64,000 nucleotides of DNA. Source: Rickettsiales bacterium (GTDB lineage: Bacteria; Pseudomonadota; Alphaproteobacteria; Rs-D84). The notes beneath the pieces were generated by a model that saw only the letters and a list, made by a program, of their open reading frames with translations, searched no databases and was not told where the DNA came from. The number at the start of each line of letters is the position of its first letter. The stretch's first letter is position 1. Position numbers and translations under genes: made by a program. Shown in pieces: positions 2,317 through 53,672 of the stretch. The stretch is taken from assembly GCA_031266915.1 (NCBI GenBank), contig JAISAB010000002.1, forward strand, positions 12,738 to 76,737, read 5' to 3'.

Positions 2317-3618
2317 TTAATCCGATATTTTTTGCACTAATACACGAGCAAACCCACTTTTTCCGTTTGTATAAGGTTCATATCGTTTATCTTGAACGAT
2401 TTCATATCCGCGTTCCAATAATCCATCCAAAATAGGATTTGCCGATACGGCAAACGGCTTTTCATAATCGTTCGGAATATATCCATTATCAACCAACAAG
2501 GTTTCTGTATCATCATATTTTTTGTTTTTTTCTGGTATATCTGCCATTGGAATAATTTTTAAACATTTTGCTTTTGGACGATTCATGACGGGCAAGTTTG
2601 TGAACCAATGCCCCGCTGCTGTCATCAACTCTTTTTTCGGATTCAGATACCAACGAACCCGTCTATGCCCAGCCCAAACCTTTCCATTCATAAAATACGG
2701 AATGTATGCTGTATTTATTGTGTTTGTATAATTTGATATAATCAAAAACTTCTTACCGCTTTCAATTATTATTTTCCAATAATCTATTGCCCGCGAAAAT
2801 GGCGGGTTCGTGCAAACTATATCCGCTTCATCGTGCAAGATTCGCAAAGATTCTTTATCGTCAAAACTGCCAGTATAGTTGTCTGGTTCTGTTTTTATCT
2901 CTTGAAACCCGTCCTTGGTAAAAATATACCCTTTGCCTTTTGCATTGAATAAATCAAGACCGCCGCTGTAATGCGCACATATTAACTTTTTCAATCCAAG
3001 TTGCATAAAGTTCTGTATAAAATAAAGTGCAAACGCAGATGTATTATTGCCGTTTCGTGGAATGTCGCCGACCGCATCATCGCAATTACAGAAAACAACC
3101 TTATTTATCCAAATCTCTTTATCATACATTGCGATTTCTTTTTCTATGTCTTCATAGCGGGTATAAAACTCATCATTTTTGACTTTTCTTGCTTTTTGCA
3201 TCAGGTCTTTATGGGTTATATCTCTTTCTTTCAATGTTGGTGTTGTTTTCTTGATGATTTTCACAATGCGCTTTTTCGTATCGGGTTTCATAAAAACCTG
3301 TTTGATAAACAACTGGTGGGACTTTATAAAATCAACATATCCATCAAACAGTGCAGAATTATAAAAATAGATTTCACGCCGCGAATCTTCGCGTAATTGA
3401 GGAAAGTGATTTTTTATATCATTTTCCATTTTCTGCATATCCTTGACTTCGCAGGTAAACAAATACTGATAAACGTTATCTTTTGACCTGCCAGTCATGT
3501 TATTATATTCCGACAACCGCCGTTCAAGATTATCGGTCAATCCAATCTTGCATTTTCCTTGTTCTAACGATGCCTGAACAATATAGATATATTGTTTATT
3601 TTTCTTTTCCATGACCAT
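2317..3618 (-). CDS. Low-GC fusion protein: N-terminal GIY-YIG/T5orf172-like nuclease domain plus C-terminal amino-methyltransferase domain (motif IV 'IVCTNPPF'); putative DNA N6-adenine/N4-cytosine methyltransferase
   Basis: KQYIYIVQ…KIGLTDNLERRLSEY (GIY-YIG-like) then …DIVCTNPPFS. GC is about 33% against about 60% for neighbours. ORF tool start is 3822; ATG at 3618 (MVMEKKNKQ) chosen. Confidence 0.65.
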   Translation of the reverse strand: MVMEKKNKQYIYIVQASLEQGKCKIGLTDNLERRLSEYNNMTGRSKDNVYQYLFTCEVKDMQKMENDIKNHFPQLREDSRREIYFYNSALFDGYVDFIKSHQLFIKQVFMKPDTKKRIVKIIKKTTPTLKERDITHKDLMQKARKVKNDEFYTRYEDIEKEIAMYDKEIWINKVVFCNCDDAVGDIPRNGNNTSAFALYFIQNFMQLGLKKLICAHYSGGLDLFNAKGKGYIFTKDGFQEIKTEPDNYTGSFDDKESLRILHDEADIVCTNPPFSRAIDYWKIIIESGKKFLIISNYTNTINTAYIPYFMNGKVWAGHRRVRWYLNPKKELMTAAGHWFTNLPVMNRPKAKCLKIIPMADIPEKNKKYDDTETLLVDNGYIPNDYEKPFAVSANPILDGLLERGYEIVQDKRYEPYTNGKSGFARVLVQKISD

Positions 3619-3954
3619 TTTATCCCTGTTTCTACACTGATAGCAATTATATGATAAACGTTTTGACATTGCAAGGAATTGCATAACATCTGTGATAATC
3701 TGCTTGCGTAGCTGATTTCTTATGCCTTTAATATCAAAGGATGCAGAACAGATTTGAATTCTGTATGCAAATATGTCGTCAACAAGGCGAAGACAGAGGC
3801 AACTAGATAAATATCTCAACAATTACTGGAAAGGTACATTCTTGGTGGTTTAGCTATATTGATAAAAGAACGCCCTGCGCCGCCGCAGGGAAAATATATT
3901 ATTTATCAAGCACAACCGACAAGAATGTACCTTTTTGGCCCCAAAAGCCCAATA

Positions 3955-11329: not shown

Positions 11330-11437
11330 AAACACTAGTGTATAGTTAATAGTCATTAGTCAGTAGTCATTAGTGAATGTGTCGCGCCTTTGGCGCGATG
11401 ACTTTATTAACTATAGACTATTGACTGTGCACTATCG
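11330..11437. repeat. TAGTNNN-heptad long hairpin element with central GC hairpin (gtgtcgcgcctttggcgcgatgac)
   Basis: Arms tagtcat/tagtcag/tagtcat/tagtgaa and their reverse complements. Confidence 0.7.
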
Positions 11438-11695
11438 TTTACTTTCAATGCATTCTTCCCATTTTTTGTTGACGCACTTTTTTGTCCCAAGCAGACCCGT
11501 GGCCGTCAAGCATTGTACAATCATGCCGGATTCGCATACGTTGCTGGCGCATTTCCTGAACAATGCGTCGTCCAGATTTGGATAGCATGATTTCATGGCG
11601 CCAGTCGAAATTAGTTCGTTCGGCGCCGGGCTGTTCGTTTGCGGCGCGGCCCAGACGGCCGACGACGAAAATAAGAGAAAAATTAAAAATATCAT
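11432..11695 (-). CDS. Small secreted cysteine-rich protein (87 aa, signal peptide, 6 Cys)
   Basis: Signal peptide MIFLIFLLFSSSAVWA; preceded by the conserved structured leader. Confidence 0.5.
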   Translation of the reverse strand: MIFLIFLLFSSSAVWAAPQTNSPAPNELISTGAMKSCYPNLDDALFRKCASNVCESGMIVQCLTATGLLGTKKCVNKKWEECIESKR

Positions 11696-11872
11696 ATTTC
11701 AAACCTCGCTTTTCGTTCAGTTAAAAACCACCAAAATTTGGTGGTTGGAGGTTAAGAACTATAAATCAGTATAGCGTGCTTATTTTGCGGCAAGCCGCAT
11801 TATTCACAACCCTCCAACCTGATAAGTTGGAGGATTTTTTCGTCCCCGCGGACGCTGATTTCAGAGGTTCTT
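11696..11872 (-). promoter_or_regulatory. Conserved structured 5' leader (attenuator/riboswitch-like), subtype 1
   Basis: Gene-sense: hairpin CCTCCAAC/GGTTGGAGG; linker GAATAATGCGG; AACCTCCAACC; terminator CCACC-N-GGTGG-UUUUU; RBS; ATG. Confidence 0.65.
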
Positions 11873-12129: not shown

Positions 12130-12378
12130 CCTGAAAGCAATGCTACAATCCCTGTGTCGCGGAGAATTTCTGCGATGGGGTGTCACAGCCTTGCACATGC
12201 GTCGAGAGATGATTGGCGCGCTTTTGCGCCGATTTTTATATCACGGCGAAAAATAACTCCTGACCGGGTCAGGAGGGCTCGTGAATATATTGAATAAACG
12301 GCACAATTCATGTGATTGTTGTGAACCTCCTGACCGCCATTTACCGGCGGTTTTTCGTTCGAAAAAAAGGAGGTTAGG
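12130..12378 (+). promoter_or_regulatory. Conserved structured 5' leader (attenuator/riboswitch-like), subtype 2, upstream of a cysteine-rich secreted protein gene
   Basis: Hairpin CTCCTGACC/GGTCAGGAG; linker GAATATATTGAATAAACGG; AACCTCCTGACC; terminator GACCGCC-N-GGCGGTT-UUUUU; AAAAAAAGGAGG-ATG. Covaries with the other copies. Confidence 0.7.
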
Positions 12379-13002
12379 ATGAAGTTTAAAATATTAGTGC
12401 GCGCAACGGCATTTTTGATTGCGTTTGGATTCGCATTCGCATCGTCTGATTCATTTGCAGAGGAGCCTGTAGAAGAAGCCCCCGATTGTAGTGGTCAATC
12501 CTGGTGCACTTACTTTACTGGCGGTAGACGTTGTGGTGGTGAAGATTGCAATGTAGGTAGGTATGGTACTTGCGAGTGTGTGGAAATTGTTGCGCAATGC
12601 ATTTGCAACGCCGGATATGAAATTTTTGGCGACGGCGAAGATTGCACTTGCACCGCGAAATGCGCGAACACCTGCCAGTCCAGCGGCACCACGGCATGCG
12701 CCATCCAAAATGGCGCCGGCACCAAGCAGAATACAGGTGGAAACAACTGCACGGGCAACTGCACGTATGGAGCATGCACGGTATCGTCATGCAACAACGG
12801 GTACTATAAAAATGGAAATGTATGCACGGCATGTACGGCGCCCGACGGAATCACTTTGACTAATGGCAGCAATCCGGCTATCGGCATGAATATAAAAAGC
12901 AAGAACAACGGAGTGAATGGAAGAACCGATTGCTATATAGAAGGAAATTTCAACGATTCGACCGGGGCATTCGGCATCACTGGCACCAATTGCACTTATT
13001 AA
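12379..13002 (+). CDS. Secreted cysteine-rich protein (repetitive C-x-C / N-G-T-rich modules)
   Basis: Signal peptide MKFKILVRATAFLIAFGFAFA; more than 25 Cys; strong Shine-Dalgarno. Confidence 0.6.
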   Translation: MKFKILVRATAFLIAFGFAFASSDSFAEEPVEEAPDCSGQSWCTYFTGGRRCGGEDCNVGRYGTCECVEIVAQCICNAGYEIFGDGEDCTCTAKCANTCQSSGTTACAIQNGAGTKQNTGGNNCTGNCTYGACTVSSCNNGYYKNGNVCTACTAPDGITLTNGSNPAIGMNIKSKNNGVNGRTDCYIEGNFNDSTGAFGITGTNCTY

Positions 13003-18717: not shown

Positions 18718-19302
18718 TCATTTCCCGCTTATTAATTTCAGCGCCATCGGGACCAGTTTCTCGACGCCGGAATCCGGATTGTCGCCGACCAGTTTCTGGG
18801 CGACCTCGACAATGTCCGCCCGTTTATATCCCAATGATTCCAGCGCTGACAACAAATCCGCCAATGCGGAATAATTCGAACCAGTTCCCGATACCTGATA
18901 CCCAGTACCCGTTTTTCCCTTTAATTCCAGAATAATCTTTTCCGCGACCTTTTTGCCTACGCCCGGCGCTGTATGGATTGTCTTGGCGTCGCCGGCGGCG
19001 ATGGCCGTCAGCAAAACGTCCGTTTTCAACGCGCCCAGGATGGCCATCGCGACCTTGGGGCCTACGCCGGACACGGTCGTCAATTGGTTGAATAATTCCT
19101 GGCTTGCCCGCGTCGCGAATCCGAACAGACGGATGGAATCGTCGCGTACAATCGTTTCAATCCACAATGTTGCTGCGGATTTCGGGTCGCCGATTGCCGA
19201 TTTGTCCGGCGTAAAGACCTTGTATCCCACACCGCCGGACGTCATAATAATCACATAATCGTTATCGATGTAGTCAACAATTCCTTGCAATTTGCCAATC
19301 AT
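18718..19302 (-). CDS. ruvA: Holliday junction branch-migration protein RuvA
   Basis: MIGKLQG…; HhH motifs (LTTVSGVGPKVA, IHTAPGVGKKVAEKI). Confidence 0.85.
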   Translation of the reverse strand: MIGKLQGIVDYIDNDYVIIMTSGGVGYKVFTPDKSAIGDPKSAATLWIETIVRDDSIRLFGFATRASQELFNQLTTVSGVGPKVAMAILGALKTDVLLTAIAAGDAKTIHTAPGVGKKVAEKIILELKGKTGTGYQVSGTGSNYSALADLLSALESLGYKRADIVEVAQKLVGDNPDSGVEKLVPMALKLISGK

Positions 19303-19371
19303 TTTGTATCCTTTTGGAAAATCATAGATTATAAATCGTCAGTCAGCAATAAAAAAACGGAGTCTTTTTAC

Positions 19372-20088
19372 ATGTCGGGACATTCAAAATGGCATAACAT
19401 TATGCATAAAAAGGGCGCCGCCGACGCGGCCCGCAGCGGCTTGTTCACCAAACTGGCGCGCGAAATCACCATGGCGGCCAAGCTGGGCGACAAGAACCCT
19501 GACAACAATCCGCGCCTGCGGCTGGCGATTTTAAACGCGCGCAAGAATTCCATGCCGAACGATAATATCAAGCGCGCGATTGACAAGGCCTCGGCTGGCG
19601 GCATGGACAATTATTCGGCCGTTCGGTACGAGGGGTACGGTCCGGGCTCGGTCCCTGTTATAGTCGAGGCGCTGACCGACAACCCGCGCCGCACCGTGCC
19701 GGAAATCCGCAGCATATTCAACAAGAACGGCGGCAGCATGGGCGAGGAAAATTCCGTATCGTTCCTGTTTACCCGCGCGGGCCAGATTTTCTATGCGCCG
19801 AATGCGGCGGCGAATCCCGACGACATGATGATGGCCGTGATGGAGGCCGGCGGCGACGATGTCGAATCGTCCGAAGACGGATATATCGTAACGACCAAGC
19901 CGGACGATTTCATGGCCGTTCAAAAGGCGCTGGCGGACAAGCTGGGCGACCCCGAGCGGGCCGAGCTGACCTGGATTCCGAACATGCCGGTCGATTTGGA
20001 CGACGAAACGTACGCGCGGCTGGAGAAACTGGTGGACTTGCTGTCTGATAACGACGATGTACAAAAGGTAATAACGGCAGCGGCGTAA
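19372..20088 (+). CDS. yebC: YebC/PmpR-family transcriptional regulator
   Basis: MSGHSKWHNIMHKKG… canonical N-terminus; start ATG at 19372. Confidence 0.85.
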   Translation: MSGHSKWHNIMHKKGAADAARSGLFTKLAREITMAAKLGDKNPDNNPRLRLAILNARKNSMPNDNIKRAIDKASAGGMDNYSAVRYEGYGPGSVPVIVEALTDNPRRTVPEIRSIFNKNGGSMGEENSVSFLFTRAGQIFYAPNAAANPDDMMMAVMEAGGDDVESSEDGYIVTTKPDDFMAVQKALADKLGDPERAELTWIPNMPVDLDDETYARLEKLVDLLSDNDDVQKVITAAA

Positions 20089-20220: not shown

Positions 20221-20628
20221 ATGAAAATAGTGCAAAAAATAACAGACAAACTGTTTACAGCCGGTGGAAGAATCATATTACCGCCAAGGCGGACCGACCC
20301 GAACAAGCCGACCGACACACAAGCCATGTACGAAGACCAATACGGCCGGGATATTACGGCGGCTTTGGATTCGCACCACAATCTGGACGCCGCGGGCGCT
20401 GTCGGCGAAGCTGTCAGGATATACACCGGCGGTTACAAATTGACGGACAAACGGCGCGATGTGTTTCCGTTCTATATCCTGTCGCCAAGCAGATTGAATT
20501 TTGGCAATCAGGATATTACGGACCGGGTCACGCAGAATTTTATAACTGAAAAATATGCCGAAGTAATTAACAGCGCCGCATATAGGTTTCGCGTAAGCCT
20601 TGGTCAGAATACCAGGGAAGGCCGATAG
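20221..20628 (+). CDS. Hypothetical protein (135 aa)
   Basis: Shine-Dalgarno aaggtg; intact ORF between yebC and ruvC; no recognised domain. Confidence 0.4.
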   Translation: MKIVQKITDKLFTAGGRIILPPRRTDPNKPTDTQAMYEDQYGRDITAALDSHHNLDAAGAVGEAVRIYTGGYKLTDKRRDVFPFYILSPSRLNFGNQDITDRVTQNFITEKYAEVINSAAYRFRVSLGQNTREGR

Positions 20629-20638
20629 GGGTTATGAT

Positions 20639-21124
20639 ATGACGCGCATTTTGGGGATTGACCCCGGGCTTTTGCACACGGGATGGTCTGTGATTGATTC
20701 GGCCGGCAACGCGCGGGCCTATGTCGCCAGCGGCGTGATTCTGCCGCCAAAGACCGAGGAGCTGGCCGTGCGCCTGGCATTTATTTTCCGCGAAGTGTCG
20801 AAATTGCTGGATATATGGAAACCTGACGAATGCTCGGTCGAAATCATATTTGTGAACAAGAATCCGAAAACGACGCTGGTTCTGGGCCAGGCGCGCGCGG
20901 CCGCGCTGATTGCCGTCGCGGACAAGGTTATCCCGGTTTTCGAGTACGAGCCGAACAAGATAAAAAAAGCGCTGAGCGGCGCGGGCCACGCCGACAAGGA
21001 ACAGATTTATAAAATGGTGAAGCTGCTGCTGCCGGTGGCCAATCCGAAAACGTCGGACGAAAGCGACGCGATTGCCATCGCGCTGGCGCATAGTAATATG
21101 AGCAGGGTAATAGTTAGTAAATAG
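20639..21124 (+). CDS. ruvC: Crossover junction endodeoxyribonuclease RuvC
   Basis: MTRILGIDPGLLHTGWSV…; catalytic D/E pattern; …AIAIALAH… C-terminal motif. Confidence 0.85.
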   Translation: MTRILGIDPGLLHTGWSVIDSAGNARAYVASGVILPPKTEELAVRLAFIFREVSKLLDIWKPDECSVEIIFVNKNPKTTLVLGQARAAALIAVADKVIPVFEYEPNKIKKALSGAGHADKEQIYKMVKLLLPVANPKTSDESDAIAIALAHSNMSRVIVSK

Positions 21125-21212
21125 TGATTAGTGCTTAGTTGATAGTGCATAGTTAATTAGTTCACTAATCACTATAAACTATTCACTATACACTACCAAC
21201 TATTTGTTTTTC
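21104..21212. repeat. TAGTNNN-heptad hairpin element between convergent ruvC and the 21211 gene
   Basis: tagtgat tagtgct tagttga tagtgca tagttaa … cactaat cactata aactatt cactata. Confidence 0.7.
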
Positions 21213-21609
21213 AGTTTCCGCACAGCGTGTGCGTGCCGGACGAATCGCGGACCTGGATGCATCCGTTTTGAAACCATATCTTTGCGCGTCCGGCCGGGGC
21301 CGCGGCCGATGGTTCCGATGTCTTGACGGTGTCGAAACGCGCGTCGTCGCCGGCCGCGACGGTGCCTGTATCCGTACCGACGGGAATCCGCGCGATACCT
21401 AATGTTCCACTTGTTATATTCGCCGCATTCGTCTGGTCCAAGTTCTGAACGTTACCGAGGCCGACCTGGGCCGCCGTCACGTTATGCGGATTGTCAGTTC
21501 GCGCGGTGTGCGCGTCGACATAGCTCTTGCCGGCAATTTCCGCCAATGCCGGCGTCGCGGCAAAAAAACATAATAAAAACATAATTCGTTTTTTCATATT
21601 CACAGCCAT
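21211..21609 (-). CDS. Secreted tail-fibre-like protein, short paralog (signal peptide + 'EIAGKSYVD…DNPHNVTAAQVGLGNVQN…' N-module + small Cys C-terminus)
   Basis: N-module about 80% nucleotide-identical to the start of the upstream gene 21600..22475; motifs recalled from phage tail-fibre N-terminal domains. Confidence 0.55.
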   Translation of the reverse strand: MAVNMKKRIMFLLCFFAATPALAEIAGKSYVDAHTARTDNPHNVTAAQVGLGNVQNLDQTNAANITSGTLGIARIPVGTDTGTVAAGDDARFDTVKTSEPSAAAPAGRAKIWFQNGCIQVRDSSGTHTLCGN

Positions 21610-22475
21610 ATGTCCGACAGCATATTTATCATGTCGCCGCCGGACAGGTAATAGACTTCGTCATTGCAGCTGTTGACGCAATTGGTATAGCTGTTGCCGC
21701 CAAGCTGGTTCCAGTTTGAATTTGTCGGGTAATACCATCGGGACGTGCGGCCGTATTTGTCCGTTGCGCGAATCCAGCAATATCTGCGGGCGTGGTATTC
21801 CATAGTCTGGTCAATCGCGACTTCTTCGATAACGCGTCCGGTGCCGCCGGGCCGCGTGGTCGACGAGCATGTCGCGACCAGGAAAAATTTCTGGCCCAGA
21901 TGCGCCGCCAGCGCCCCGGCGCACAAATTCGACGTGCAGCTTTTGCCGCAATACTCGCCCCGATACAAACTAACGCTTACCAAGGTCCCGTTCGGCCCCA
22001 TTACCAATCCGGCGGTTTCGCCCGCGACGCCGCACATCAGTCCCAGCTCGTGTTTGCTGACGTAATCGACCGGCTGTCCGGCGCCGTTTTCGCACAGGGC
22101 GGGGGTCGTCACGCCGCCGCTGCGAACATAAAGGCATCCGTTTTCATACCATACCTTATCGCGGCCGTCGGCGGGAAGGCGCCAGGGCTCGGCCAATTCG
22201 ACGGTGTCGAACCGTGCGTCGTCGCCGGCCAAGACAGTGTTTTCATTTGTTCCAATGGGAATTCGCGCGGCATCCAATATGCCGGCGGTTATGTTCGCCG
22301 CGTTCGTCTGGTCCAAATTCTGGACGTTTCCCAGACCGACTTGGGTCGCCGTCACGCTATGCGGATTATCCGTGCGCGCGGCGTGCGCGTCGATGTACGC
22401 GTTGCCGGCGACATCAGCCCTGGCGTTTGCAACGCATGCGATTATGCAAATAAGACCGGCGGCGATGGATTTCAT
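21600..22475 (-). CDS. Secreted tail-fibre-like protein with Cys-rich C-terminal domain (long paralog)
   Basis: Signal peptide MKSIAAGLICIIACVANARA; same N-module as 21211; ATG at 22475 chosen (ORF tool start 22505 is GTG). Confidence 0.6.
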   Translation of the reverse strand: MKSIAAGLICIIACVANARADVAGNAYIDAHAARTDNPHSVTATQVGLGNVQNLDQTNAANITAGILDAARIPIGTNENTVLAGDDARFDTVELAEPWRLPADGRDKVWYENGCLYVRSGGVTTPALCENGAGQPVDYVSKHELGLMCGVAGETAGLVMGPNGTLVSVSLYRGEYCGKSCTSNLCAGALAAHLGQKFFLVATCSSTTRPGGTGRVIEEVAIDQTMEYHARRYCWIRATDKYGRTSRWYYPTNSNWNQLGGNSYTNCVNSCNDEVYYLSGGDMINMLSDIWL

Positions 22476-22665
22476 TTTTAACCTGTTTGACACAAAGCCA
22501 CCCACAGCGAACGCAAGGGTGGTTGGAGGTTAAAGACTATAATTTTCAGAAAATAGCGGGCTTATTCGATATATTCGCCGCCCTCCAACCGATGGTTGGA
22601 GGTTTTTATCGTCCCCGCGGACGCTGAAAATTAAGAGGTCTTTACGCCCCGCCGCAGGCCTTTGC
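22476..22665 (-). promoter_or_regulatory. Conserved structured 5' leader, subtype 1 (as 11696..11872)
   Basis: Hairpin AACCTCCAACC-atc-GGTTGGAGG; linker CGAATATATCGAATAAGC; AACCTCCAACC; hairpin CCACCC-N-GGGTGG; shared distal module cgtccccgcggacgctga…agaggtc. Confidence 0.65.
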
Positions 22666-22719
22666 CGCCCGCGACAAATATAGTTTAGCAAAAACGAGAA
22701 TGTAAATCAATAGGTTCGT

Positions 22720-22919: not shown

Positions 22920-23216
22920 ATGAAAGATATGCCAAAAGACCAAATGGAACGCATCATGCACAAGTTGTATCACAAACGCAACTTTCTGCTGCGCGCGTTC
23001 GTAATCAACCTGGTTCTGATAATAGCGGTGTGGGGACTGTCCATGACGGATTTCTATGCGAATATGGCGGGACACTTTATGCACTGTCCGGCGGCGCAGG
23101 CGGAAACGTATACCATGGATTTGCTGGGCGCGTGGAAAATCGCGGGCGTTCTGTTCTTCCTGGTGCCTGCGCTGGCCGCATGGTGGGAACTGCATGCATG
23201 CCGGAAACGCCAATAG
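22920..23216 (+). CDS. Small hypothetical membrane protein (2 transmembrane helices)
   Basis: Two hydrophobic helices; intact ORF with upstream AT-rich promoter region. Confidence 0.45.
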   Translation: MKDMPKDQMERIMHKLYHKRNFLLRAFVINLVLIIAVWGLSMTDFYANMAGHFMHCPAAQAETYTMDLLGAWKIAGVLFFLVPALAAWWELHACRKRQ

Positions 23217-23312
23217 TTATTAGTGCATAGTGATTAGTGCTTAGTTTATAGTACATAGTTAAAATTTACTAAACACTAAGCACTATAAACTATGCACTAC
23301 TCACTAATGACT
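23214..23312. repeat. TAGTNNN-heptad hairpin element (7 heptads per arm) between convergent genes
   Basis: tagttat tagtgca tagtgat tagtgct tagttta tagtaca tagttaa | tactaaa cactaag cactata aactatg cactact cactaat gactatt. Confidence 0.75.
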
Positions 23313-23637
23313 ATTTTCTTATCGTCACCTTTGCCACGGCGTCATAGCCGAAGTATTTGTTTATCTTTGCCGCGATGTCGTCTTTCATATAGGATAATTG
23401 CAGCGCGAACGCCGGATTCGCGGCGCGCACGGCGATATTGAATTTCTTGTCGCGGGTCTTGGTTATCGCGGCCAGCCGCGCAATCGACGCGATGTCGCCG
23501 CCCATGATTTCATCCCAGCGATTGCTCAAATCAGCGTCTGATGCGCGGACGCCGAACAGCCGCATCAATCCCCCGAACGTCGACGCGATGGTCTGGGGGC
23601 GGGCAGTGCGTTTGTTAAGATTAACAGGATTGGCCAT
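23311..23637 (-). CDS. DUF721/DciA-like protein (putative helicase-loader family)
   Basis: …RWDEIMGGDIASIARLAAI…FNIAVRAANPAFALQLSYMKDDIAAKINKYFG…VKVTIRK fits the DUF721 pattern. Confidence 0.5.
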   Translation of the reverse strand: MANPVNLNKRTARPQTIASTFGGLMRLFGVRASDADLSNRWDEIMGGDIASIARLAAITKTRDKKFNIAVRAANPAFALQLSYMKDDIAAKINKYFGYDAVAKVTIRK

Positions 23638-23645
23638 TGTTGAAC

Positions 23646-23740
23646 CATTAGTTTATAGTGATTAGTGCTTAGTTTATAGTGCATAGTTAAATAGCTTACT
23701 AATCACTAAGCACTATTCACTATACACTACAAACTAGTGT
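23646..23740. repeat. TAGTNNN-heptad hairpin element between dciA-like gene and mltA
   Basis: tagtttatagtgattagtgcttagtttatagtgcatagtt … aatcactaagcactattcactatacactacaaactag. Confidence 0.7.
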
Positions 23741-24832
23741 CTAGTAAGGTTTCACATACACGTATTCTTTGGGCATCAGGATGTACATCTCGCCCTGGGA
23801 ATGCTGGCCTTGGGCGTATTTGTACGCGTCGTCGCCCTTGCCGAAGAATATGTCCGCGCGTATCCAGCCGCGGATGGCGCTGCCGGTGTCTTGGGCAATC
23901 ATCAGCCGGCGGAACTTGCGCCCGTCGGATAGGTTCGTGTTGACATATACGGGCAGCCCCAGCGTATACAGCGAATCGTCCATCGCGATGCTGCGGATTT
24001 TCGACAGCGGCGTGCCGATTTTGCCAATCACGTCCGGCGGCACCGACACATAGAAATACACATAGCGCGGATTGTTGTAAATAACCTCGCGCGCAAGCGC
24101 CGGGTTCTGGCGTAGATGCTGCCATACGGCCTCGGACGAATATCCGTTTGCCGGGCGGATGTTTTTCGCCTTCAGCTGTTCCCCAATCGATTTGAACGGC
24201 ATGTCGTTCACGGCCGCGAAGTTCAATTTGACCAGGGTGCCGTCTTCCAGCTGCAGCATGCCGCTGCCTTGGATTTGGATGTTCTGAACATCGACAATGT
24301 TCGCCCAGTACAGAACTTTGCCGATTTGGTTGTTCACGATTGTCTTCTTGTCCACGCCTTTGTACGCTCGCCCGTCAGTCGGAATGCCCATCAGGGGTTC
24401 GTTATACTGTGTGCTTTTGCTTTTCGAGGCAGGGATAATCGGCGAATAATATCCTGTGTATGTTCCTTTGTCTTTGCCGGCATCGTCATGGATTTTATAC
24501 GGCTGGAAGTGCGATTCGAACCAAGCGCGCACGGTCGCGGTGTCCGCGGACGCCGCGGGCAGCATTTTGCACTTTTCTTCGAACAGCGCCGCGTCAGGCA
24601 CGACCCGGCCGACATATTGGATGCGGGCCTTGCAGCTGTTGCGGAACGACTGCAGGGCGTATCGGACGTCATCCTCGCGCCAGCCGGGCAGCTGCGAGTA
24701 CGAAACCGCGCGCAGATTGGACGGCACGGTCGACCGGTTGCCTGTATGATGTGTCGGGCTCGGCGCAGGCCCGCTTAAATCGCAAGATGCCAAAAACAGG
24801 CATAGCACGCCAAGTATCGATATTTTTTTCAT
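23741..24832 (-). CDS. mltA: Membrane-bound lytic murein transglycosylase A (MltA-like lipoprotein)
   Basis: Lipobox LFLASC; MltA/3D-domain motifs (…QDTGSAIRG…); size about 360 aa. Confidence 0.7.
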   Translation of the reverse strand: MKKISILGVLCLFLASCDLSGPAPSPTHHTGNRSTVPSNLRAVSYSQLPGWREDDVRYALQSFRNSCKARIQYVGRVVPDAALFEEKCKMLPAASADTATVRAWFESHFQPYKIHDDAGKDKGTYTGYYSPIIPASKSKSTQYNEPLMGIPTDGRAYKGVDKKTIVNNQIGKVLYWANIVDVQNIQIQGSGMLQLEDGTLVKLNFAAVNDMPFKSIGEQLKAKNIRPANGYSSEAVWQHLRQNPALAREVIYNNPRYVYFYVSVPPDVIGKIGTPLSKIRSIAMDDSLYTLGLPVYVNTNLSDGRKFRRLMIAQDTGSAIRGWIRADIFFGKGDDAYKYAQGQHSQGEMYILMPKEYVYVKPY

Positions 24833-24899: not shown

Positions 24900-25331
24900 A
24901 TGCCAAAATTTAACATCATTCAGCAATTCTTGAGAGACATCTCGTTCGAGAGCCCGAATGTTCCGGAATTGTTCTTCAAACAAGACAACGGCAACGCCAA
25001 GCTGGAAATCAGCATCGACGTTCAAATCAAGGGCGCCGAGAACAATCTGTTCATGGTCGATTTGATTACCAAGGTTCATTCCAAGCTGGAGGCGGACGGC
25101 AAAACGATTTTCCTGATTGAATCCAGCTATGCGGGCCTGGTTCAGATGGAAGAGGAAAAGGACGAGGAAGTCAAAAAGCGCACCTTGCTGATTGATATTC
25201 CGAAGATGCTGTTTCCATCCGTGCGTGCGCTGGTCGCCAGACTGACGTCCGAATCTGGATTTCCGACGTTCGCGATGCAGCCGGTTGATTTCCAGGCGCT
25301 GTATGAAGAAAAGCAGAAGCAGGGACAATAA
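24900..25331 (+). CDS. secB: Protein-export chaperone SecB
   Basis: MPKFNIIQQFLRDISFESPN… typical SecB N-terminus and acidic C-terminal tail. Confidence 0.85.
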   Translation: MPKFNIIQQFLRDISFESPNVPELFFKQDNGNAKLEISIDVQIKGAENNLFMVDLITKVHSKLEADGKTIFLIESSYAGLVQMEEEKDEEVKKRTLLIDIPKMLFPSVRALVARLTSESGFPTFAMQPVDFQALYEEKQKQGQ

Positions 25332-25743: not shown

Positions 25744-26385
25744 ATGAACAGAATAATTTCCAAGTTATCACGTGTGTTATTATGTGTGGCGCTTATCGCG
25801 TTATTTGCACCCATGTCGGCCCGGGCCGAAATCGCGTCTAAGTCCTATGTAGATAGTCTGGCGATGCCGAACGGTGACGATTACTTGCAAAAAGCCGGCG
25901 GCACGATGACCGGTGAAATCGCGATGGGCGGAAATAAAATAGCAGGTTTGGGCGCGCCGACGGACGGCGACGATGCGACGACCAAGGACTATGTTGATAA
26001 TCTGGCCGCGGCCGGCGGAGGGACCATCGGCGGCGGTTCCGTCCCATCGTGGGCCGCGCTGAACGGCGAAGACTGGGCGGACAGCGGCTGGGGCGTCAAA
26101 TGGGTTGTCGATAACGGAACATATATGGTTGACGGCGTCGGCACATGCCTGTCGACAGATAGCAGAAGCGGCATCCTACCCAGCACATTCGGTTACGGCC
26201 CGAACTGCTGGTGCAGGGTCGAAGGAATAAACAATACGCGCGTTTTGGGCGCCTGGGTGTTCAAGCATACTGAAAGCGGCGGCTATGAAGATTGTTATGC
26301 GACCTGCGCGTCAAGATGCGCCAATTGCGTACGCGTAGGCTCGTCCGATGGATGCAGCCGCGCCGCGTTGTTCACTGCGCCATGA
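25744..26385 (+). CDS. Secreted tail-fibre-like protein ('EIASKSYVD…GGTMTGEI…KDYVDN' N-terminus) with Cys-rich C-terminus
   Basis: Signal peptide MNRIISKLSRVLLCVALIALFAPMSARA; motifs recalled from phage tail-fibre/collar N-termini; C-terminal CWC…CYATCASRCANC. Confidence 0.55.
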   Translation: MNRIISKLSRVLLCVALIALFAPMSARAEIASKSYVDSLAMPNGDDYLQKAGGTMTGEIAMGGNKIAGLGAPTDGDDATTKDYVDNLAAAGGGTIGGGSVPSWAALNGEDWADSGWGVKWVVDNGTYMVDGVGTCLSTDSRSGILPSTFGYGPNCWCRVEGINNTRVLGAWVFKHTESGGYEDCYATCASRCANCVRVGSSDGCSRAALFTAP

Positions 26386-26389: not shown

Positions 26390-26605
26390 AAATAATAAAG
26401 AATAGATAATAAAGAATAAAAATATGTTCGGTCTAATTTCCCCTCCTATGGAGGGGTGGCGCGCGGATGCGCGACGGGGTGGTTAGAGGTTTCGAGATTA
26501 AATTTTGATTATCCAACCACCTCCCGGTCTTCGACCGTACTCCTCCAAAGGAGGAGAACTTAGACCGAACATATTTTTATTCTTTATTATTTATTCATTA
26601 AAAAG
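26390..26605. mobile_element. MITE-like non-coding element with terminal inverted repeats of about 30 bp (ataataaagaataaaaatatgttcggtctaa … ttagaccgaacatatttttattctttattat) enclosing several GC hairpins
   Basis: Terminal inverted repeats seen directly; a solo repeat-like sequence (aataaagaatagagaataaagaataaa) occurs at 2213..2245 next to the low-GC island. Confidence 0.55.
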
Positions 26606-26698
26606 GGCAAATATGATTCGCCCCTACATCACCTGGGTCGCGGGGTCAAGCCCCGCGATGACAAAGCAAGGAGTGACAGCCACTGGATGACAGCTTGA

Positions 26699-26822
26699 GA
26701 AATAGTCTATAGTCGATAGTCATTAGTCTATAGTGATTAGTATTTAGTTGATAATGCATAGTTGACTAGTTTACTGAACACTAACGACTATTGACTATAG
26801 ACTAATGATTATTGACTACACC
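26699..26822. repeat. TAGTNNN-heptad hairpin element
   Basis: tagtctatagtcgatagtcattagtctatagtgattagtatttagttgataatgcatagttgactagtt … and reverse-complement arm. Confidence 0.7.
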
Positions 26823-28049: not shown

Positions 28050-28185
28050 GGATAGCATATAGCGGTAGTTGATAACCATTAGTGATTAGTGCATAGTGTT
28101 TAATTATTAGTAAACTAGTTAACTATTCACTATAAACTAATCACTATTAACTACTGACTAATGACTATTGACTAACAGTTGTTTT
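28050..28185. repeat. TAGTNNN-heptad hairpin element between MFS gene and recA
   Basis: …cattagtgattagtgcatagtgtttaattattagtaaactagttaactattcactataaactaatcactattaactactgactaatgactattgacta. Confidence 0.7.
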
Positions 28186-30252: not shown

Positions 30253-31260
30253 ATGCCGGCAATATCGGTCGTGATACCTGTATATAATGTTGAAAAATAC
30301 CTGCGGCGCTGTTTGGACAGCGTCGCGGGTCAGACTTTCTCGGACTGGGAGGCGATTTGCGTCAACGACGGCAGCCCTGACAACAGCGCCGCGATACTGG
30401 CCGAATACGCCGCACGCGACAAGCGGTTCAAAGTCATCACCAAGGAAAACGGCGGCCTGTCCGACGCGCGCAATGTCGGCACGGACGCCGCGACCGGCGA
30501 CTATCTGATTTATTTGGATTCGGACGATTTTATTCATCCCCAGACGATGGAATTTTCCTATGCGCTGGCGCAGCGCGACGGTTCCGACATCGTATCCTGG
30601 TACAAGGATAAGTTCTTTCGCCCGCAGTTGCTGATATGGTACAAGCTGGGGTTCGACATCGATTCCATGATGCCGCGCCGAATCAAAAAAAGGTACAAGC
30701 TGGAAAAAATCAGGACATGCGTCACGGACGATGTCTTCGCGCATACGACCGAGCGTCCGAACAGCAGCATCAAATGGCCCATCAAGCATTTTTACGTATG
30801 GCGCCATTTAATCCGCCGCGAATTCATCAAAGGAATAAAATTCATCAAGGGAATCACTTTCGAGGATTTTCCCTGGTGGTCCGAGGTCATGCTGCACCAT
30901 CCGCGCGTCACGATTACCAAGCTGCCGTTCCTTTATTACTTTCCGAACCTTAATTCCATCGACATGGCGTCCAACGAGGTCAAGAAAGTGCGCAACTGGA
31001 TAATCGGTTTGGAATCGTCTTACAATATGTACAGGGCACGGGCGACCGATTATGAAAAGATCGCATGGGAACGCGAAGTCATGTGGCCGGTCATCGTCTA
31101 TCAGATTTTTCGCAAGGTAAGATATATCAAAAAGTCGGCGGATGCCGAATTTATCAAAGAGACGTTGCTGCGTTTCAAAGAAATGGGCATGTTCGACAAT
31201 CCACAGACCTGGCGGGCAAAAATATATCAGCGCAGAATTTTGAAGTATATCAATCAATAG
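30253..31260 (+). CDS. Family 2 glycosyltransferase
   Basis: ISVVIPVYNVEKYLRRCLDSV…NDGSPD…YLDSDD GT2 motifs. Confidence 0.8.
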   Translation: MPAISVVIPVYNVEKYLRRCLDSVAGQTFSDWEAICVNDGSPDNSAAILAEYAARDKRFKVITKENGGLSDARNVGTDAATGDYLIYLDSDDFIHPQTMEFSYALAQRDGSDIVSWYKDKFFRPQLLIWYKLGFDIDSMMPRRIKKRYKLEKIRTCVTDDVFAHTTERPNSSIKWPIKHFYVWRHLIRREFIKGIKFIKGITFEDFPWWSEVMLHHPRVTITKLPFLYYFPNLNSIDMASNEVKKVRNWIIGLESSYNMYRARATDYEKIAWEREVMWPVIVYQIFRKVRYIKKSADAEFIKETLLRFKEMGMFDNPQTWRAKIYQRRILKYINQ

Positions 31261-31352
31261 TCATTAGTGAGTAGTGCATAGTTTATAGTGATTAGTGAAT
31301 TAGTTAACTATGCACTATAAACTAAGCACTAATCACTATGCACTAACTATTA
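31256..31352. repeat. TAGTNNN-heptad hairpin element between convergent glycosyltransferase genes
   Basis: tagtcattagtgagtagtgcatagtttatagtgattagtgaattagtt | aactatgcactataaactaagcactaatcactatgcactaacta. Confidence 0.7.
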
Positions 31353-37319: not shown

Positions 37320-37370
37320 AAACAGTAGTGAGTAGTGAACTAGTTAACTATGCACTAATCACTACTGATT
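37320..37370. repeat. Short TAGTNNN-heptad hairpin element
   Basis: agtagtgagtagtgaactagttaactatgcactaatcactactg. Confidence 0.6.
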
Positions 37371-47003: not shown

Positions 47004-47122
47004 AATAGTCAATAGTCTATAGTCGTTAGTTATTAGTGAAGGTGTCGCGCAACCTGTCCACCGAAGCCTTGGCGAAGGTGGAAGCGCGACGACTTTATTA
47101 ACTATTGACTAATAACTATTTC
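47004..47122. repeat. TAGTNNN-heptad hairpin element with extended central GC hairpin (gtgtcgcgc…ccaccgaagccttggcgaaggtgg…gcgcgacgac)
   Basis: The central hairpin is related to that of 11330..11437. Confidence 0.7.
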
Positions 47123-52777: not shown

Positions 52778-53050
52778 TCCAAACCTCCTTTTTTAGCGAA
52801 TGAAAAAACCGCCGGGAAAAAGGCGGTCGGGAGGTTTACGACAATCCAATGAATTGTGCCGCTTATTCAATATATTCGCGAGCCCTCCCAACCAAGTCGG
52901 GAGATATTTTTCGCCGCAATAACAAAAATGGCGCGAAAGCGCGCCGATTTGTCAACAGCGCATTGGAAAGAGGTCGTAACACCCCGTCGCGGAAACTCTC
53001 CGCGGCACTTGAATCATACCAATAGTGAAATGTTTTTACAAGTGGTATAA
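52778..53050 (-). promoter_or_regulatory. Conserved structured 5' leader, subtype 2 (as 12130..12378)
   Basis: Gene-sense: CTCCCGAC/GTTGGGAG hairpin; GAATATATTGAATAAGCGG; AAACCTCCCGACC; terminator GACCGCC-N-GGCGGTT-UUUUUU; CATTCGCTAAAAAAGGAGG-ATG; distal module ccccgtcgcggaaactctccgcggcac. Confidence 0.7.
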
Positions 53051-53123: not shown

Positions 53124-53672
53124 TCATGGCGCGAAAGCCGATAGCAGCGCGGACACGAAAGCGGAACTGCTGGCGTCAGTTGAAGATACGCACTCATTCG
53201 CACACTTCGTTGCGCAATTGGCACCCCCGCTAAGTGACCCGTAATAAACCCAGCCGGCATAGTTTACATTATCGGAAATTCTTTTCAAACGGCACCAGCA
53301 GTACCATTCGGGGTAATTTAACTCCGTACCGCTGTGATTTCTGACGATATTGCAGCTCGCAATACCGGAACCGGCGGCAGAGGTAAGGCTGCATACGCTC
53401 TGAATAAGGTAGCCTCTGACCGCATTATTCGGAGTATGAGAAGATTGATAAACAGTGTATCCTTTGTATTCAAGTTCCAAGCCGGCATAGTTGCTGCCGG
53501 AATTATACTGCGTGTAGATGCCGTCCGCATAGTCTTCTGCCGGGTTCGCGTTTCCGGCATCGCCGCCGATTTCAAACTTCCCAGTTTCATCCTCTAAGGC
53601 TAAAACGGCAAAAGCGCCGCGCATTGCAGATACAAGCGCCCATGCGAATACGGCCAGGGTTAATTTTTTCAT
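53124..53672 (-). CDS. Hypothetical secreted protein with several Cys (signal peptide MKKLTLAVFAWALVSA)
   Basis: ATG at 53672 chosen (signal peptide); preceded by the conserved leader. Confidence 0.55.
   Translation of the reverse strand: MKKLTLAVFAWALVSAMRGAFAVLALEDETGKFEIGGDAGNANPAEDYADGIYTQYNSGSNYAGLELEYKGYTVYQSSHTPNNAVRGYLIQSVCSLTSAAGSGIASCNIVRNHSGTELNYPEWYCWCRLKRISDNVNYAGWVYYGSLSGGANCATKCANECVSSTDASSSAFVSALLSAFAP

What the first reader, a model, noticed from the sequence alone, without database searches (positions are those of the whole stretch)
21211..22475. Tandem paralogous secreted 'tail-fibre-like' proteins
Two adjacent minus-strand genes share an N-terminal module of about 100 aa at about 80% nucleotide identity: signal peptide, then EIAGKSYVDAH.ARTDNPH.VTA.QVGLGNVQNLDQTNAANIT.G.L…GDDARFDTV, then EP…NGC..VR…LC.N. 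The motifs (KSYVD…; A-QVGLGNV-N) are ones I recall from phage tail-fibre N-terminal domains. Here they are fused to Sec signal peptides and, in the longer paralog, to a Cys-rich C-terminal domain. The short gene (21211..21609) looks like a duplicated N-module. The longer gene carries the conserved leader RNA. Possible roles are secreted adhesin/receptor-binding, bacteriocin-like or tailocin-derived proteins.
Basis: partly seen in the sequence, partly recalled or inferred. Interest (0 to 1): 0.7.

Follow-up and report, generated by a model that had tools for sequence, protein, structure and literature searches.

The report
Secreted phage-fibre-like protein pair
Two neighbouring genes of an uncultured gut alphaproteobacterium encode exported proteins built around a phage tail-fibre-type module, and they are unusual members of an undescribed family that probably forms surface fibres for attaching to partner cells.

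Summary
Two translationally coupled minus-strand genes share a Sec signal peptide and a 91-aa module: long 21600-22475 (291 aa) and short 21211-21597 (128 aa). BLASTP gives E 5e-51, with 74-75% nt and 69% aa identity and dN/dS 0.29.

The module carries real phage tail-fibre and minor-tail motifs (PHROGs E down to 6e-9; 78 phage records). The genes nevertheless lie among ruvA, yebC, ruvC, dciA, mltA and secB, with no phage or tailocin cluster nearby.

They belong to an unnamed family of more than 100 proteins with no Pfam or NCBIfam model. Its members are Sec-exported, fibre-like proteins found in reduced-genome gut Alphaproteobacteria (Rs-D84/Candidatus Enterousia and termite, ruminant and human MAGs).

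In 91 of 92 relatives the protein ends with this module (...WFN/E). Only these two continue. Both add a Cys-bracketed beta-hairpin. The long one also adds a 161-aa, 8-Cys domain found only in this MAG, which has at least three paralogues.

My best reading, at moderate confidence, is that these are subunits of a cell-surface fibre or adhesin with a lineage-specific tip. This is inferred, not shown.

The "conserved leader" is real. It is a covarying RNA switch with 5 copies in the window and 83 more in gut metagenomes.

The parts
22677..22706 (-). Promoter-like site (TTTACA-18-TATATT) ahead of the leader
   Evidence: 10 of 12 consensus match. It aligns with -10-like boxes (TACAAT, TATGAT, CATAAT) upstream of the other four leader copies.
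22470..22612 (-). Structured 5' leader of the long gene. It has hairpin P1 (CCUCCAACC/GGUUGGAGG), a conserved GNGAAUAUAUYGAAUAA stretch, hairpin P2, a second CCUCCAACC copy that can pair with either the P1 3' arm or the Shine-Dalgarno region, and a terminator-like hairpin P4.
   Evidence: Covariance model R1 scores 118 bits here. Cognate-specific duplex energies for A:B, A2:B and A2:SD are. Covariation was seen in 13 of 16 pairs across 83 further homologues.
21600..22475 (-). Long gene, 291 aa (LBJ73_00665, MDR1337524.1), stop codon included
22416..22475 (-). Long: Sec-type signal peptide (aa 1-20, ...ANARA|DVAG)
   Evidence: Read from the sequence. The same SP-AxA|[DEN][IV]A[SG]xxY[VI] start occurs in 83-84 of 92 family members.
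22143..22415 (-). Long: fibre module (aa 21-111). It comprises the AGNAYIDAH start, the H..TDNPHSVTATQVGLGNVQN motif, NAANITAG..ARIPIGT...TVLAGDDARF, and P..GR.KVWYE.
   Evidence: PHROGs tail families, phage tblastn and family alignment A4.
22086..22142 (-). Long: Cys-bracketed hairpin extension NGCLYVRSGGVTTPALCEN (aa 112-130)
   Evidence: It aligns to the short protein's extension. The equivalent region in the short protein is modelled as beta strands at pLDDT above 90. It is absent from 92 of 92 other family members.
21603..22085 (-). Long: 161-aa C-terminal domain with 8 Cys, an orphan outside this MAG
   Evidence: phmmer against 1.84 billion representatives found only itself plus two spurious repeat proteins. 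There is no Pfam or NCBIfam hit. It shows weak paralogy to window ORFs 53127-53672 and 25744-26385 through the motif CW[CI]R..W.[YF]..GG..C...C.
21211..21597 (-). Short gene, 128 aa (LBJ73_00660, MDR1337523.1). An alternative ATG lies at 21609. It is translationally coupled to the long gene.
21541..21597 (-). Short: signal peptide (aa 1-19, ...TPALA|EIAG)
   Evidence: Read from the sequence.
21268..21540 (-). Short: fibre module (aa 20-110)
   Evidence: PHROGs E 6e-9 to 1e-4. The family profile search scored it at E 1e-69 and about 100 relatives at E below 1e-25.
21214..21267 (-). Short: Cys-bracketed hairpin extension NGCIQVRDSSGTHTLCGN (aa 111-128)
   Evidence: AlphaFold2 with the family alignment places strands at 106-110, 113-118 and 121-126, with pLDDT 92-96.
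21125..21210 (.). AT-rich palindrome between the short gene and convergent ruvC. It is a copy of a dispersed TAGTGATTAGTG repeat and is the likely terminator of the operon.
   Evidence: The fold has z-score -4.45. The repeat has 24 matches in the window against 0.06 expected.
25744..26385 (+). Paralogue elsewhere in the window. It has a signal peptide, EIASKSYVDS, a GGTMTG..NKI..L..P...DA.TK.YVD fibre motif, and a Cys-rich C-terminal domain (CWCR..W.F..GG..C...C...C).
   Evidence: Translation. It shares 41% identity over 54 aa (E 1e-7) with the 53127-53672 product. PHROGs tail-fibre hits have E about 4e-4.
53124..53672 (-). Paralogue of the Cys-rich C-terminal domain (LBJ73_00820), preceded by a leader copy

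Best explanation
The locus is a two-gene operon. It runs from a promoter through a structured leader to the long gene and then the translationally coupled short gene. Both products are Sec-exported subunits of a phage-fibre-like cell-envelope structure.

After signal-peptide cleavage, both proteins start with the family hallmark [DE][IV]AGxxY[VI]D. This is followed by a tail-fibre-type stalk/neck module (H..NPH.VT..QVGLGNV.N, then NAANIT.G...R.P.GT...TV.AGDDARF, then P..GR.K.W[FY]). By analogy with phage fibres, this module probably drives oligomerisation, most likely trimerisation.

In phage proteins that carry this module, a receptor-binding domain follows it. The long protein reproduces that layout with a lineage-specific, disulfide-rich 161-aa domain, which I interpret as the distal binding tip. 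The short protein has only an 18-aa disulfide-bracketed hairpin cap. It is either a tip-less fibre or a co-assembling partner that sets how many tips a fibre carries.

The organism belongs to, or is close to, the reduced-genome, partner-dependent gut Alphaproteobacteria. The likely role is therefore contact with a host or partner cell.

What is shown: the paralogy, purifying selection, tail-fibre motif homology, family membership, the unique extensions, the non-phage context, and the leader structure. What is inferred: export, oligomerisation, surface location, binding function, and any hetero-assembly.
For: - Paralogy and selection: E 5e-51. dN/dS is 0.285 at dS 0.76, so both copies are old and maintained.
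- Tail-fibre motif homology: PHROGs tail, minor tail and tail fiber families with E 6e-9 to 1e-4, covering aa 19-110. 78 phage records match.
- Phage layout: in Gordonia phage Frizzle gp26, VGLGNV.N...GTLAYARLPVGT...VVAGDDARL precedes a C-terminal domain.
- Cellular family: 124 hits, about 100 with E below 1e-25, all labelled 'hypothetical' and with no Pfam model.
- Taxonomic spread: Candidatus Enterousia, 'uncultured Rickettsiales', and ruminant, human and termite gut MAGs.
- Family features: 84 of 92 members look SP-bearing and 83 of 92 have the IASxxYV start. Lengths run from 80 to 646 aa through variable stalk repeats, which is fibre-like modularity.
- Lifestyle: Rs-D84 genomes are under 1 Mb and are inferred to be obligate symbionts or parasites with unexplained surface proteins (PMC12306168).
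- Precedent: Bdellovibrio MAT proteins are signal-peptide-bearing, phage-fibre-like surface adhesins (PMC10769870).
- Tip-domain expansion: the Cys-rich C-terminal domain recurs in at least three other secreted proteins of the same MAG. Two of them also start with EIASKSYVD.
- Context: the neighbours are ruvA, yebC, ruvC, dciA, mltA, secB and trmE.
Against: - Oligomeric state, export route across the outer membrane, and surface location are all untested.
- At 109 and 271 mature residues, these proteins are far shorter than known fibre adhesins.
- In 91 of 92 relatives the module is the C-terminal end of the protein rather than a neck before a tip. Its family-wide role could therefore be anchoring instead.
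- No secretin or TcpQ gene, as found next to many relatives, lies in this 64-kb window.
- The homology of the long protein's C-terminal domain to the other Cys-rich domains is weak (E 0.025 pairwise).
Confidence: 0.45

Rival explanations
1. The proteins are components or substrates of a type-IVb-like secretin machine rather than free-standing adhesins. On this view, the family module docks to, or is exported through, a PilN/TcpC-type lipoprotein secretin with its TcpQ partner. The window pair would be dispersed paralogues of that secretin-linked gene.
For: In 17 of about 45 alphaproteobacterial loci, the family gene lies directly downstream of TcpQ (PF10671) and a 542-aa lipoprotein secretin (PF00263). 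The secretin's best NCBIfam match is TIGR02520 PilN, at 242 bits. The fibre gene at that position varies from 117 to 525 aa, while the secretin is 83-100% identical across loci.
Against: All 17 loci share one synteny block (RuvX...SufBD-TcpQ-secretin-fibre-S20-PlsY-DprA-DnaA). The linkage may therefore reflect shared ancestry within one clade. In several loci an intrinsic terminator separates the secretin from the fibre gene. No secretin or TcpQ gene lies in this window. No pilus assembly genes lie within 8 kb in the relatives. The TIGR02520 score is below its cutoff of 288 bits.
Confidence: 0.15
2. The pair is a targeted toxin or effector, of bacteriocin or 'fibre-toxin' type. The fibre module would provide target recognition or oligomerisation, and the Cys-rich C-terminal domain would be the active moiety. 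The short protein would act as an immunity-like or competing partner.
For: The protein is secreted, and its disulfide-rich orphan C-terminal domain has expanded into several paralogues in one genome. A small partner gene is tightly coupled to it. The shared leader also fronts other small secreted Cys-rich proteins.
Against: The C-terminal domain shows no similarity to any toxin, bacteriocin or immunity family in Pfam, NCBIfam or PHROGs, or to any PDB sequence (one search covers the module; searches cover the C-terminal domain). The short protein is itself exported and is a paralogue of the module, unlike immunity proteins. No lysis or release genes lie nearby.
Confidence: 0.12
3. The genes are decaying remnants of a prophage or tailocin tail-fibre gene with no cellular function.
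For: The only detectable homology outside the family is to phage tail proteins.
Against: dN/dS is 0.285 between copies that have diverged to dS 0.76. Both have intact ORFs with signal peptides, which phage fibres lack. A dedicated promoter and regulated leader precede them. A conserved family of more than 100 members exists in cellular genomes. The flanks are housekeeping genes, and PHROGs found no hit in the neighbours tested.
Confidence: 0.04

Closest known systems
Phage tail-fibre / minor-tail proteins carrying the H..NPH.VT..QVGLGNV.N and ...GT..ARLPVGT...V.AGDDARL motifs (e.g. Gordonia phage Frizzle gp26, SPbeta YomR-like virion proteins, Bacillus BppU-type baseplate proteins; PHROGs 2012, 25620, 3285, 8780, 35034)
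   Same: The sequence motifs are the same and occur in the same order. In the phage protein, as in the long gene here, the module is followed by a separate C-terminal domain.
   Different: The window genes have Sec signal peptides. They are 128 and 291 aa rather than 400-1000 aa. They lie among housekeeping genes with no virion or tailocin cluster. Their C-terminal domain is unrelated to any phage domain found.
Unnamed family of small signal-peptide 'mini-fibre' proteins of Rs-D84 / Candidatus Enterousia and related gut Alphaproteobacteria (e.g. MBQ7055314.1 IJN91_00050; all annotated hypothetical)
   Same: They share the signal peptide, the [DEN][IV]A[SG]xxY[VI] mature N-terminus, and the full module with 45-60% identity.
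   Different: 91 of 92 relatives terminate 21-26 aa after ..RF, at W[FI][NE]. The two window proteins continue for 40 and 202 aa after ..RF. Many relatives sit beside a TcpQ gene and a PilN-like secretin gene, and/or ahead of genes for Gly-rich proteins of about 330 aa. Neither feature is present in this window.
Bdellovibrio bacteriovorus MAT (mosaic adhesive trimer) fibres (Caulton et al. 2024, PMC10769870)
   Same: The concept is the same: chromosomally encoded, signal-peptide-bearing, phage-fibre-like proteins on the surface of a bacterium that depends on other cells. They have a conserved proximal part and variable C-terminal tips, expanded into paralogue sets.
   Different: MATs are roughly 600-1100 aa, have a conserved beta-rich N-terminal domain of about 130 aa, and 13 of 21 carry an S74 chaperone-protease. 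No S74 or other Pfam domain is found here. No PDB sequence match to solved MAT fragments was obtained. The lineage is also different: Alphaproteobacteria rather than Bdellovibrionota.
Phage tail-fibre gene followed by a small tail-fibre assembly (Tfa) gene
   Same: The gene order is the same: a fibre-like gene followed immediately by a small, translationally coupled gene.
   Different: The small protein here is a paralogue of the fibre module with its own signal peptide. It is not a Tfa/Caudo_TAP homologue, as no Pfam hit appears at E up to 10.

Membership tests
Phage tail fibre / minor tail protein | Sequence motifs of tail-fibre stalk/neck modules | tested here: met
   PHROGs returned 22-23 families per protein, mostly tail, with E 6e-9 to 1e-4. 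78 phage records matched by tblastn.
Phage tail fibre / minor tail protein | Encoded within a phage, prophage or tailocin structural gene cluster | tested here: not met
   The flanking genes are ruvA, yebC, ruvC, dciA, mltA, secB and trmE. Neighbouring unknown ORFs have no PHROG hit.
Phage tail fibre / minor tail protein | Cytoplasmic assembly, i.e. no Sec signal peptide | tested here: not met
   Both proteins begin with a typical n-h-c region and an AxA site. This is read from the sequence; no signal-peptide predictor was available.
Phage tail fibre / minor tail protein | Trimeric fibre fold | not testable with these tools
   Only monomer prediction was possible. The model is extended and has no structural neighbours.
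Rs-D84/Enterousia mini-fibre family (unnamed) | Signal peptide followed by a [DEN][IV]A[SG]xxY[VI] mature N-terminus | tested here: met
   The window proteins have EIAGKSYVD and DVAGNAYID. The motif occurs in 83 of 92 relatives.
Rs-D84/Enterousia mini-fibre family (unnamed) | Complete conserved module (NPH..VGLGNV.N / NA.N.TSGT..RLPVGT..TVAAGDD.RF / P.G...W[FI]) | tested here: met
   The profile search gave E 1e-69 for the short protein. Relatives score E 1e-48 to 1e-25 at 45-65% identity.
Rs-D84/Enterousia mini-fibre family (unnamed) | Protein ends at W[FI][NE], 21-26 aa after ..RF | tested here: not met
   This holds for 91 of 92 relatives. The short protein has 40 aa and the long protein 202 aa after ..RF.
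Rs-D84/Enterousia mini-fibre family (unnamed) | Adjacency to TcpQ and a PilN-like secretin (seen in a subset only) | tested here: not met
   17 of about 45 related loci have this adjacency. tblastn with both proteins finds nothing in the 64-kb window.
Bdellovibrio MAT fibres | Conserved beta-rich N-terminal domain of about 130 aa after the signal peptide | not tested
The mature short protein (109 aa) is too small to contain that domain plus a fibre.
Bdellovibrio MAT fibres | S74 chaperone-protease (S74 subfamily), or a trimeric beta-prism with a variable tip | tested here: not met
   No Pfam domain appears at E up to 10. No PDB sequence hit was found. The fold could not be assessed.
Tail-fibre assembly chaperone (Tfa) - for the short gene | Homology to Caudo_TAP/Tfa families | tested here: not met
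   Pfam returned zero families. All PHROGs hits are fibre or tail proteins, none of them chaperones.
Rfam sRNA-Xcc1 (RF02221) - for the leader | Score at or above the gathering threshold (53 bits) | tested here: not met
   The score is 33.3 bits, and it appears only in a 481-nt search space. The match is absent from the whole-window scans.

The most novel reading that the evidence does not exclude
The pair may belong to a previously undescribed, phage-fibre-derived attachment apparatus of obligately partner-dependent gut Alphaproteobacteria (Rs-D84 and relatives). In this reading, Sec-exported mini-fibres have a conserved terminal strand that is completed either in cis or in trans. The cis case is the Cys hairpin and tip domain seen here. 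The trans case would involve a partner or an orphan type-IVb-like secretin. Expression would be set by a new class of covarying leader RNA switch that also governs a regulon of secreted Cys-rich proteins.
Probability: 0.2. Interest if true: 0.75.

Novelty: new variant of a known kind. Interest (0 to 1): 0.5.

Why it matters
Rs-D84-type Alphaproteobacteria are widespread in human, livestock and termite guts. Their genomes are under 1 Mb, and they are thought to live off other cells, but no contact or attachment machinery has been described for them (PMC12306168).

A conserved, rapidly diversifying family of exported phage-fibre-like proteins is a concrete candidate for that machinery. This locus shows a fibre module naturally fused to a lineage-specific tip. 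That makes it a convenient construct for testing oligomerisation and binding.

The locus also adds a second bacterial lineage, after Bdellovibrio, in which phage-fibre building blocks appear to have been taken over for cell-cell contact.

Finally, the associated leader RNA is a testable new cis-regulatory element.

Tried and rejected
- **Pfam and NCBIfam.** Both proteins, their paralogues and relatives gave no hits.
- **PDB sequence searches.** A single-sequence search and a motif-profile search found only 7z47 'putative tail fiber', at E 3.5.
- **AlphaFold2 of the long protein alone.** pLDDT was 32, which is unusable.
- **Exhaustive phmmer of the Cys-rich domain.** Only self and two spurious repeat proteins were found. 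A three-paralogue profile found only proteins of the same MAG.
- **Complementation hypothesis.** I asked whether the Gly-rich proteins encoded downstream of family genes in Enterousia are homologous to, or complement, the window's hairpin extension. hhalign gave probability 0.5%, so this is not supported. No Gly-rich homologue lies in the window.
- **Stop-codon readthrough hypothesis.** I asked whether readthrough fuses the fibre and Gly-rich genes. The stop codons are mixed (TAA, TAG, TGA), the spacers are SD-like, and 4 of 12 pairs are out of frame, so I rejected this.
- **Secretin and TcpQ in the window.** None found.
- **Rfam identity for the leader.** Only a sub-threshold sRNA-Xcc1 match was found.
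- **Literature search on the NPH motif.** Nothing useful.
- **Contig look-up for paralogue LBJ73_02910.** It is not on record.
Full report
**1. What is in the sequence**

The minus strand carries two ORFs exactly where the finding places them. The long gene runs 22475 to 21600 from the ATG that NCBI also uses. It encodes 291 aa, 'MAG: hypothetical protein LBJ73_00665 [Rickettsiales bacterium]', MDR1337524.1. The upstream GTG at 22505 lies inside a leader hairpin and is unlikely to be used.

The short gene runs 21597 (or 21609) to 21211. It encodes 128 aa, LBJ73_00660, MDR1337523.1. Its ATG lies two bases after the long gene's TGA, so the two genes are translationally coupled in one operon.

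BLASTP of short against long gives 59% identity over 133 aa, E 5e-51. blastn gives 75.5% over 277 nt. Over 96 aligned codons, identity is 74% (nt) and 69% (aa), with dS 0.76 and dN/dS 0.285. This is an old duplication with both copies under purifying selection, not a recent copy or a decaying fragment.

Each protein starts with a typical Sec signal peptide ending in AxA. This is read from the sequence.

Coordinates of the sub-parts are:
- Long: signal peptide aa 1-20, module aa 21-111, Cys-bracketed hairpin aa 112-130, and an 8-Cys domain aa 131-291.
- Short: signal peptide aa 1-19, module aa 20-110, and hairpin aa 111-128.

**2. The tail-fibre resemblance is real but limited to motifs**

Pfam and NCBIfam find nothing. 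PHROGs gives 22-23 families per protein, mostly 'tail fiber', 'minor tail' or 'tail collar fiber'. E-values run from 6e-9 to 1e-4 and the matches cover aa 19-110.

tblastn against 50,697 phage genomes finds 78 records. The annotated features matched include minor tail, tail fiber, virion structural protein and YomR.

Gordonia phage Frizzle gp26 (698 aa) contains ...DVGLGNVANL...GTLAYARLPVGTGAGSVVAGDDARL... at about aa 505-575, followed by a separate C-terminal domain. The shared module is therefore a stalk/neck element that precedes a tip in phages. It is not an N-terminal virion-attachment domain.

A PDB sequence search found only a marginal match to a 'putative tail fiber' (7z47, E 3.5).

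**3. Context is cellular, not viral**

The neighbours are:
- ruvA (18718-19302)
- yebC (19285-20088)
- ruvC (20600-21124, convergent with the short gene)
- dciA (23311-23637)
- mltA (23741-24832)
- secB (24900-25331)
- trmE
- an AMP-binding enzyme, and others

Unknown neighbouring ORFs have no PHROG hits. There is no phage or tailocin cluster in the locus.

**4. The module defines an undescribed cellular family**

A profile of the two modules retrieved 124 proteins, about 100 of them with E below 1e-25. All are unnamed or 'hypothetical' and have no precomputed Pfam domain.

A scan of GTDB species representatives places them in gut Alphaproteobacteria. These include Candidatus Enterousia, 'uncultured Rickettsiales' UMGS MAGs, ruminant RGIG MAGs and termite-gut MAGs.

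The architecture has four parts:
- a signal peptide;
- a mature N-terminus [DEN][IV]A[SG]xxY[VI];
- zero to many stalk repeats, giving total lengths of 80-646 aa;
- the module.

Of 92 members with the module, 84 look SP-bearing and 83 have the IASxxYV start. In 91 of them the protein ends 21-26 aa after '..AAGDDARF', at W[FI][NE].

The two window proteins are the only ones that continue, by 40 and 202 residues after RF. The common form of the family is therefore the short one.

**5. The extensions**

AlphaFold2 of the short protein with the 62-sequence family alignment gives mean pLDDT 75.7. Most of the module is extended. Residues 80-128 score pLDDT 84-96 and form a three-stranded meander: KIWFQ, CIQVRD, GTHTLC. 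The family's terminal WF strand pairs with the extension, and the two Cys flank the last hairpin.

The long protein's 161-aa, 8-Cys domain is an orphan. phmmer against 1.84 billion representatives returns only itself plus two spurious repeat proteins.

Within the same MAG the domain has paralogues:
- Window ORF 53124-53672 (LBJ73_00820).
- Window ORF 25744-26385. This one also has EIASKSYVD after its signal peptide, plus a GGTMTG...NKI..L..P...DA.TK.YVD fibre motif.
- LBJ73_02910, on another contig.

They share ..[ST]C....CW[CI]R....W.[YF]....GG..C...C... The link between the long protein and the others is weak (E 0.025). The link among the others is clear (E 1e-7).

**6. Clues to function from relatives**

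In 17 of about 45 alphaproteobacterial loci, the family gene lies directly downstream of a TcpQ-like gene and a gene for a 542-aa lipoprotein secretin. The secretin's best NCBIfam match is the PilN type-IVb secretin (242 bits, below cutoff).

All these loci share one synteny block, so the linkage may be inherited. Terminators separate secretin and fibre in several loci, and the window has no secretin.

In 11 loci the family gene is followed by one or two genes for Gly-rich proteins of about 330 aa that lack signal peptides. They have no homologue in the window, no detectable similarity to the window's extension, and no sign of readthrough fusion.

The literature describes Rs-D84/Enterousia as flagella-less bacteria with genomes under 1 Mb. 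[quoted passage not shown]

The clearest precedent is the Bdellovibrio MAT family. Its members are signal-peptide-bearing, phage-fibre-like trimeric surface adhesins with variable tips (PMC10769870).

**7. Most likely mechanism**

I propose that both proteins are exported by Sec and oligomerise through the module, most likely as trimers as in phage fibres. They would form short fibres on the cell envelope.

The long protein displays the disulfide-rich domain as a binding tip. The short protein forms a capped, tip-less version or co-assembles with the long one, which would fit the translational coupling and the conserved module.

Shown: paralogy, selection, motif homology, family membership, unique extensions, cellular context. 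Inferred: export, oligomerisation, location, binding. Confidence is about 0.45.

The rivals are a secretin-associated component or substrate (0.15), a targeted toxin or effector (0.12), and a prophage remnant (0.04). The remainder is unassigned.

**8. The leader**

The 'conserved leader' is real. A covariance model built from four copies recovers them and finds a fifth, independent copy:
- 22470-22612(-)
- 11690-11843(-)
- 53667-53810(-)
- 52772-52914(-)
- 12246-12384(+), the independent copy, at 106 bits

All five lie immediately upstream of genes for signal-peptide, Cys-rich small proteins. A promoter-like site precedes each.

The RNA has these elements:
- hairpin P1, formed by A (CCUCCAACC) and B (GGUUGGAGG);
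- a conserved single-stranded GNGAAUAUAUYGAAUAA stretch;
- hairpin P2;
- a second copy of A (A2), which overlaps a terminator-like hairpin P4 and can also pair with the gene's Shine-Dalgarno sequence.

A, B and A2 co-vary as a trio in three sequence variants, and cognate combinations are always the most stable. This indicates mutually exclusive helices, i.e. a switch.

A scan of metagenome contigs with the conserved core returned at least 120 stretches. 83 of them match the model at 31-106 bits. 13 of 16 modelled pairs show double changes, with 93.5% of cells paired against 44-67% in slid controls. That alignment was fitted to the model, so it leans toward the model's structure.

Downstream genes in those contigs are mixed. 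32 of 63 look SP-bearing, 24 of 63 have at least 6 Cys, and many others are small HTH-like proteins. The leader is therefore not specific to the fibre family.

A related MAG (L050) has leader-like elements before both a mini-fibre gene and Cys-rich secreted genes. Rfam offers only a sub-threshold sRNA-Xcc1 match.

**9. Verdict**

The locus is a new variant of a known kind: cell-encoded, exported, phage-fibre-like proteins. It belongs to an undescribed family and has unique C-terminal extensions. Interest is moderate (0.5). It would be higher if the attachment-apparatus reading and the leader switch are borne out.

Noticed in passing
window 22470-22612(-), 11690-11843(-), 53667-53810(-), 52772-52914(-), 12246-12384(+): There are five copies of a structured leader RNA of about 140 nt plus an upstream promoter, each directly before a gene for a signal-peptide, Cys-rich small protein. 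Three elements co-vary: A, B and A2 (CCUCCAACC / GGUUGGAGG / CCUCCAACC). They allow alternative pairings that would mask or free the Shine-Dalgarno sequence and a terminator-like hairpin. Gut metagenome contigs hold 83 further full-length homologues, and 13 of 16 pairs covary. No Rfam family reaches threshold.
   Followed up: yes
window 21122-21174, 23214-23313, 23656-23722, 26731-26742, 28080-28146, 31258-31338, 37326-37364, 47027-47038, 60147-60181, 11364-11375: A dispersed AT-rich palindromic repeat built from TAGTGATTAGTG units has 24 matches against 0.06 expected. It sits in intergenic regions, often between convergent genes, and folds into long hairpins (z = -4.45 for the copy after the short gene). 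It is probably a REP-like element or a bidirectional terminator.
   Followed up: partly
window 25744-26385(+), 53124-53672(-), 52205-52777(-), 12379-13002(+), 11432-11695(-): These are further small secreted Cys-rich proteins. 25744-26385 combines the EIASKSYVD start and a GGTMTG...YVD tail-fibre motif with the CWCR..W.F..GG..C...C...C domain, which it shares with 53124-53672. 52205-52777 and 12379-13002 carry GYY..C..C repeats reminiscent of VSP or furin-like Cys repeats (Pfam VSP E 0.012; DUF6520 just below cutoff).
   Followed up: partly
L004 4984-8354, L007 5085-8576, L010 5297-8519, L002 6073-10564 and 13 more loci: In Enterousia-type genomes the mini-fibre gene sits directly downstream of a TcpQ-like gene and a gene for a 542-aa lipoprotein secretin (PilN type-IVb-like, 83-100% identical across species). 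No pilus assembly genes lie within 8 kb, while the fibre gene at that position varies from 117 to 525 aa.
   Followed up: partly
L023 6409-7401, L043 6400-7395, L019 6313-7311, L026 6281-7273, L027 6268-8300, L029 6255-8270, L016 3247-5243 and others: One or two genes for Gly-rich, Cys-containing proteins of about 330 aa (MPAINIGDFQ...YRVELRGGAGG...SYVKIYR) follow the mini-fibre gene by 8-30 nt. These proteins have no recognisable signal peptide and no Pfam or PHROG hit. It is unexplained how they would meet an exported fibre.
   Followed up: partly
L050 5830-6234 and 7667-8524: A roe-deer caecum MAG (RGIG4037) has leader-like elements before an 80-aa mini-fibre gene and before two secreted Cys-rich protein genes. 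This repeats the association seen in the window.
   Followed up: partly
metagenome loci L110, L168, L094, L119, L165, L117, L100 and others: In many metagenomic copies the same leader precedes small (70-85 aa) HTH-like proteins (e.g. MKIMAKLLIDANYYGNIMRCARQHLRISVADAAALLKMSKKDYKKCERG...). The leader therefore serves a wider set of accessory genes than secreted proteins alone.
   Followed up: no
window 26428-26620: An odd GC-rich element downstream of the 25744-26385 gene contains CCTCC/GGAGG palindromes and an AACCTCTAACCACC motif related to the leader. It scores only 15.5 bits with the leader model.
   Followed up: no
window 2317-3822(-): This ORF combines a T5orf172/MUG113 (GIY-YIG-like) domain with an EcoRI-type adenine methyltransferase domain.
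   Followed up: no
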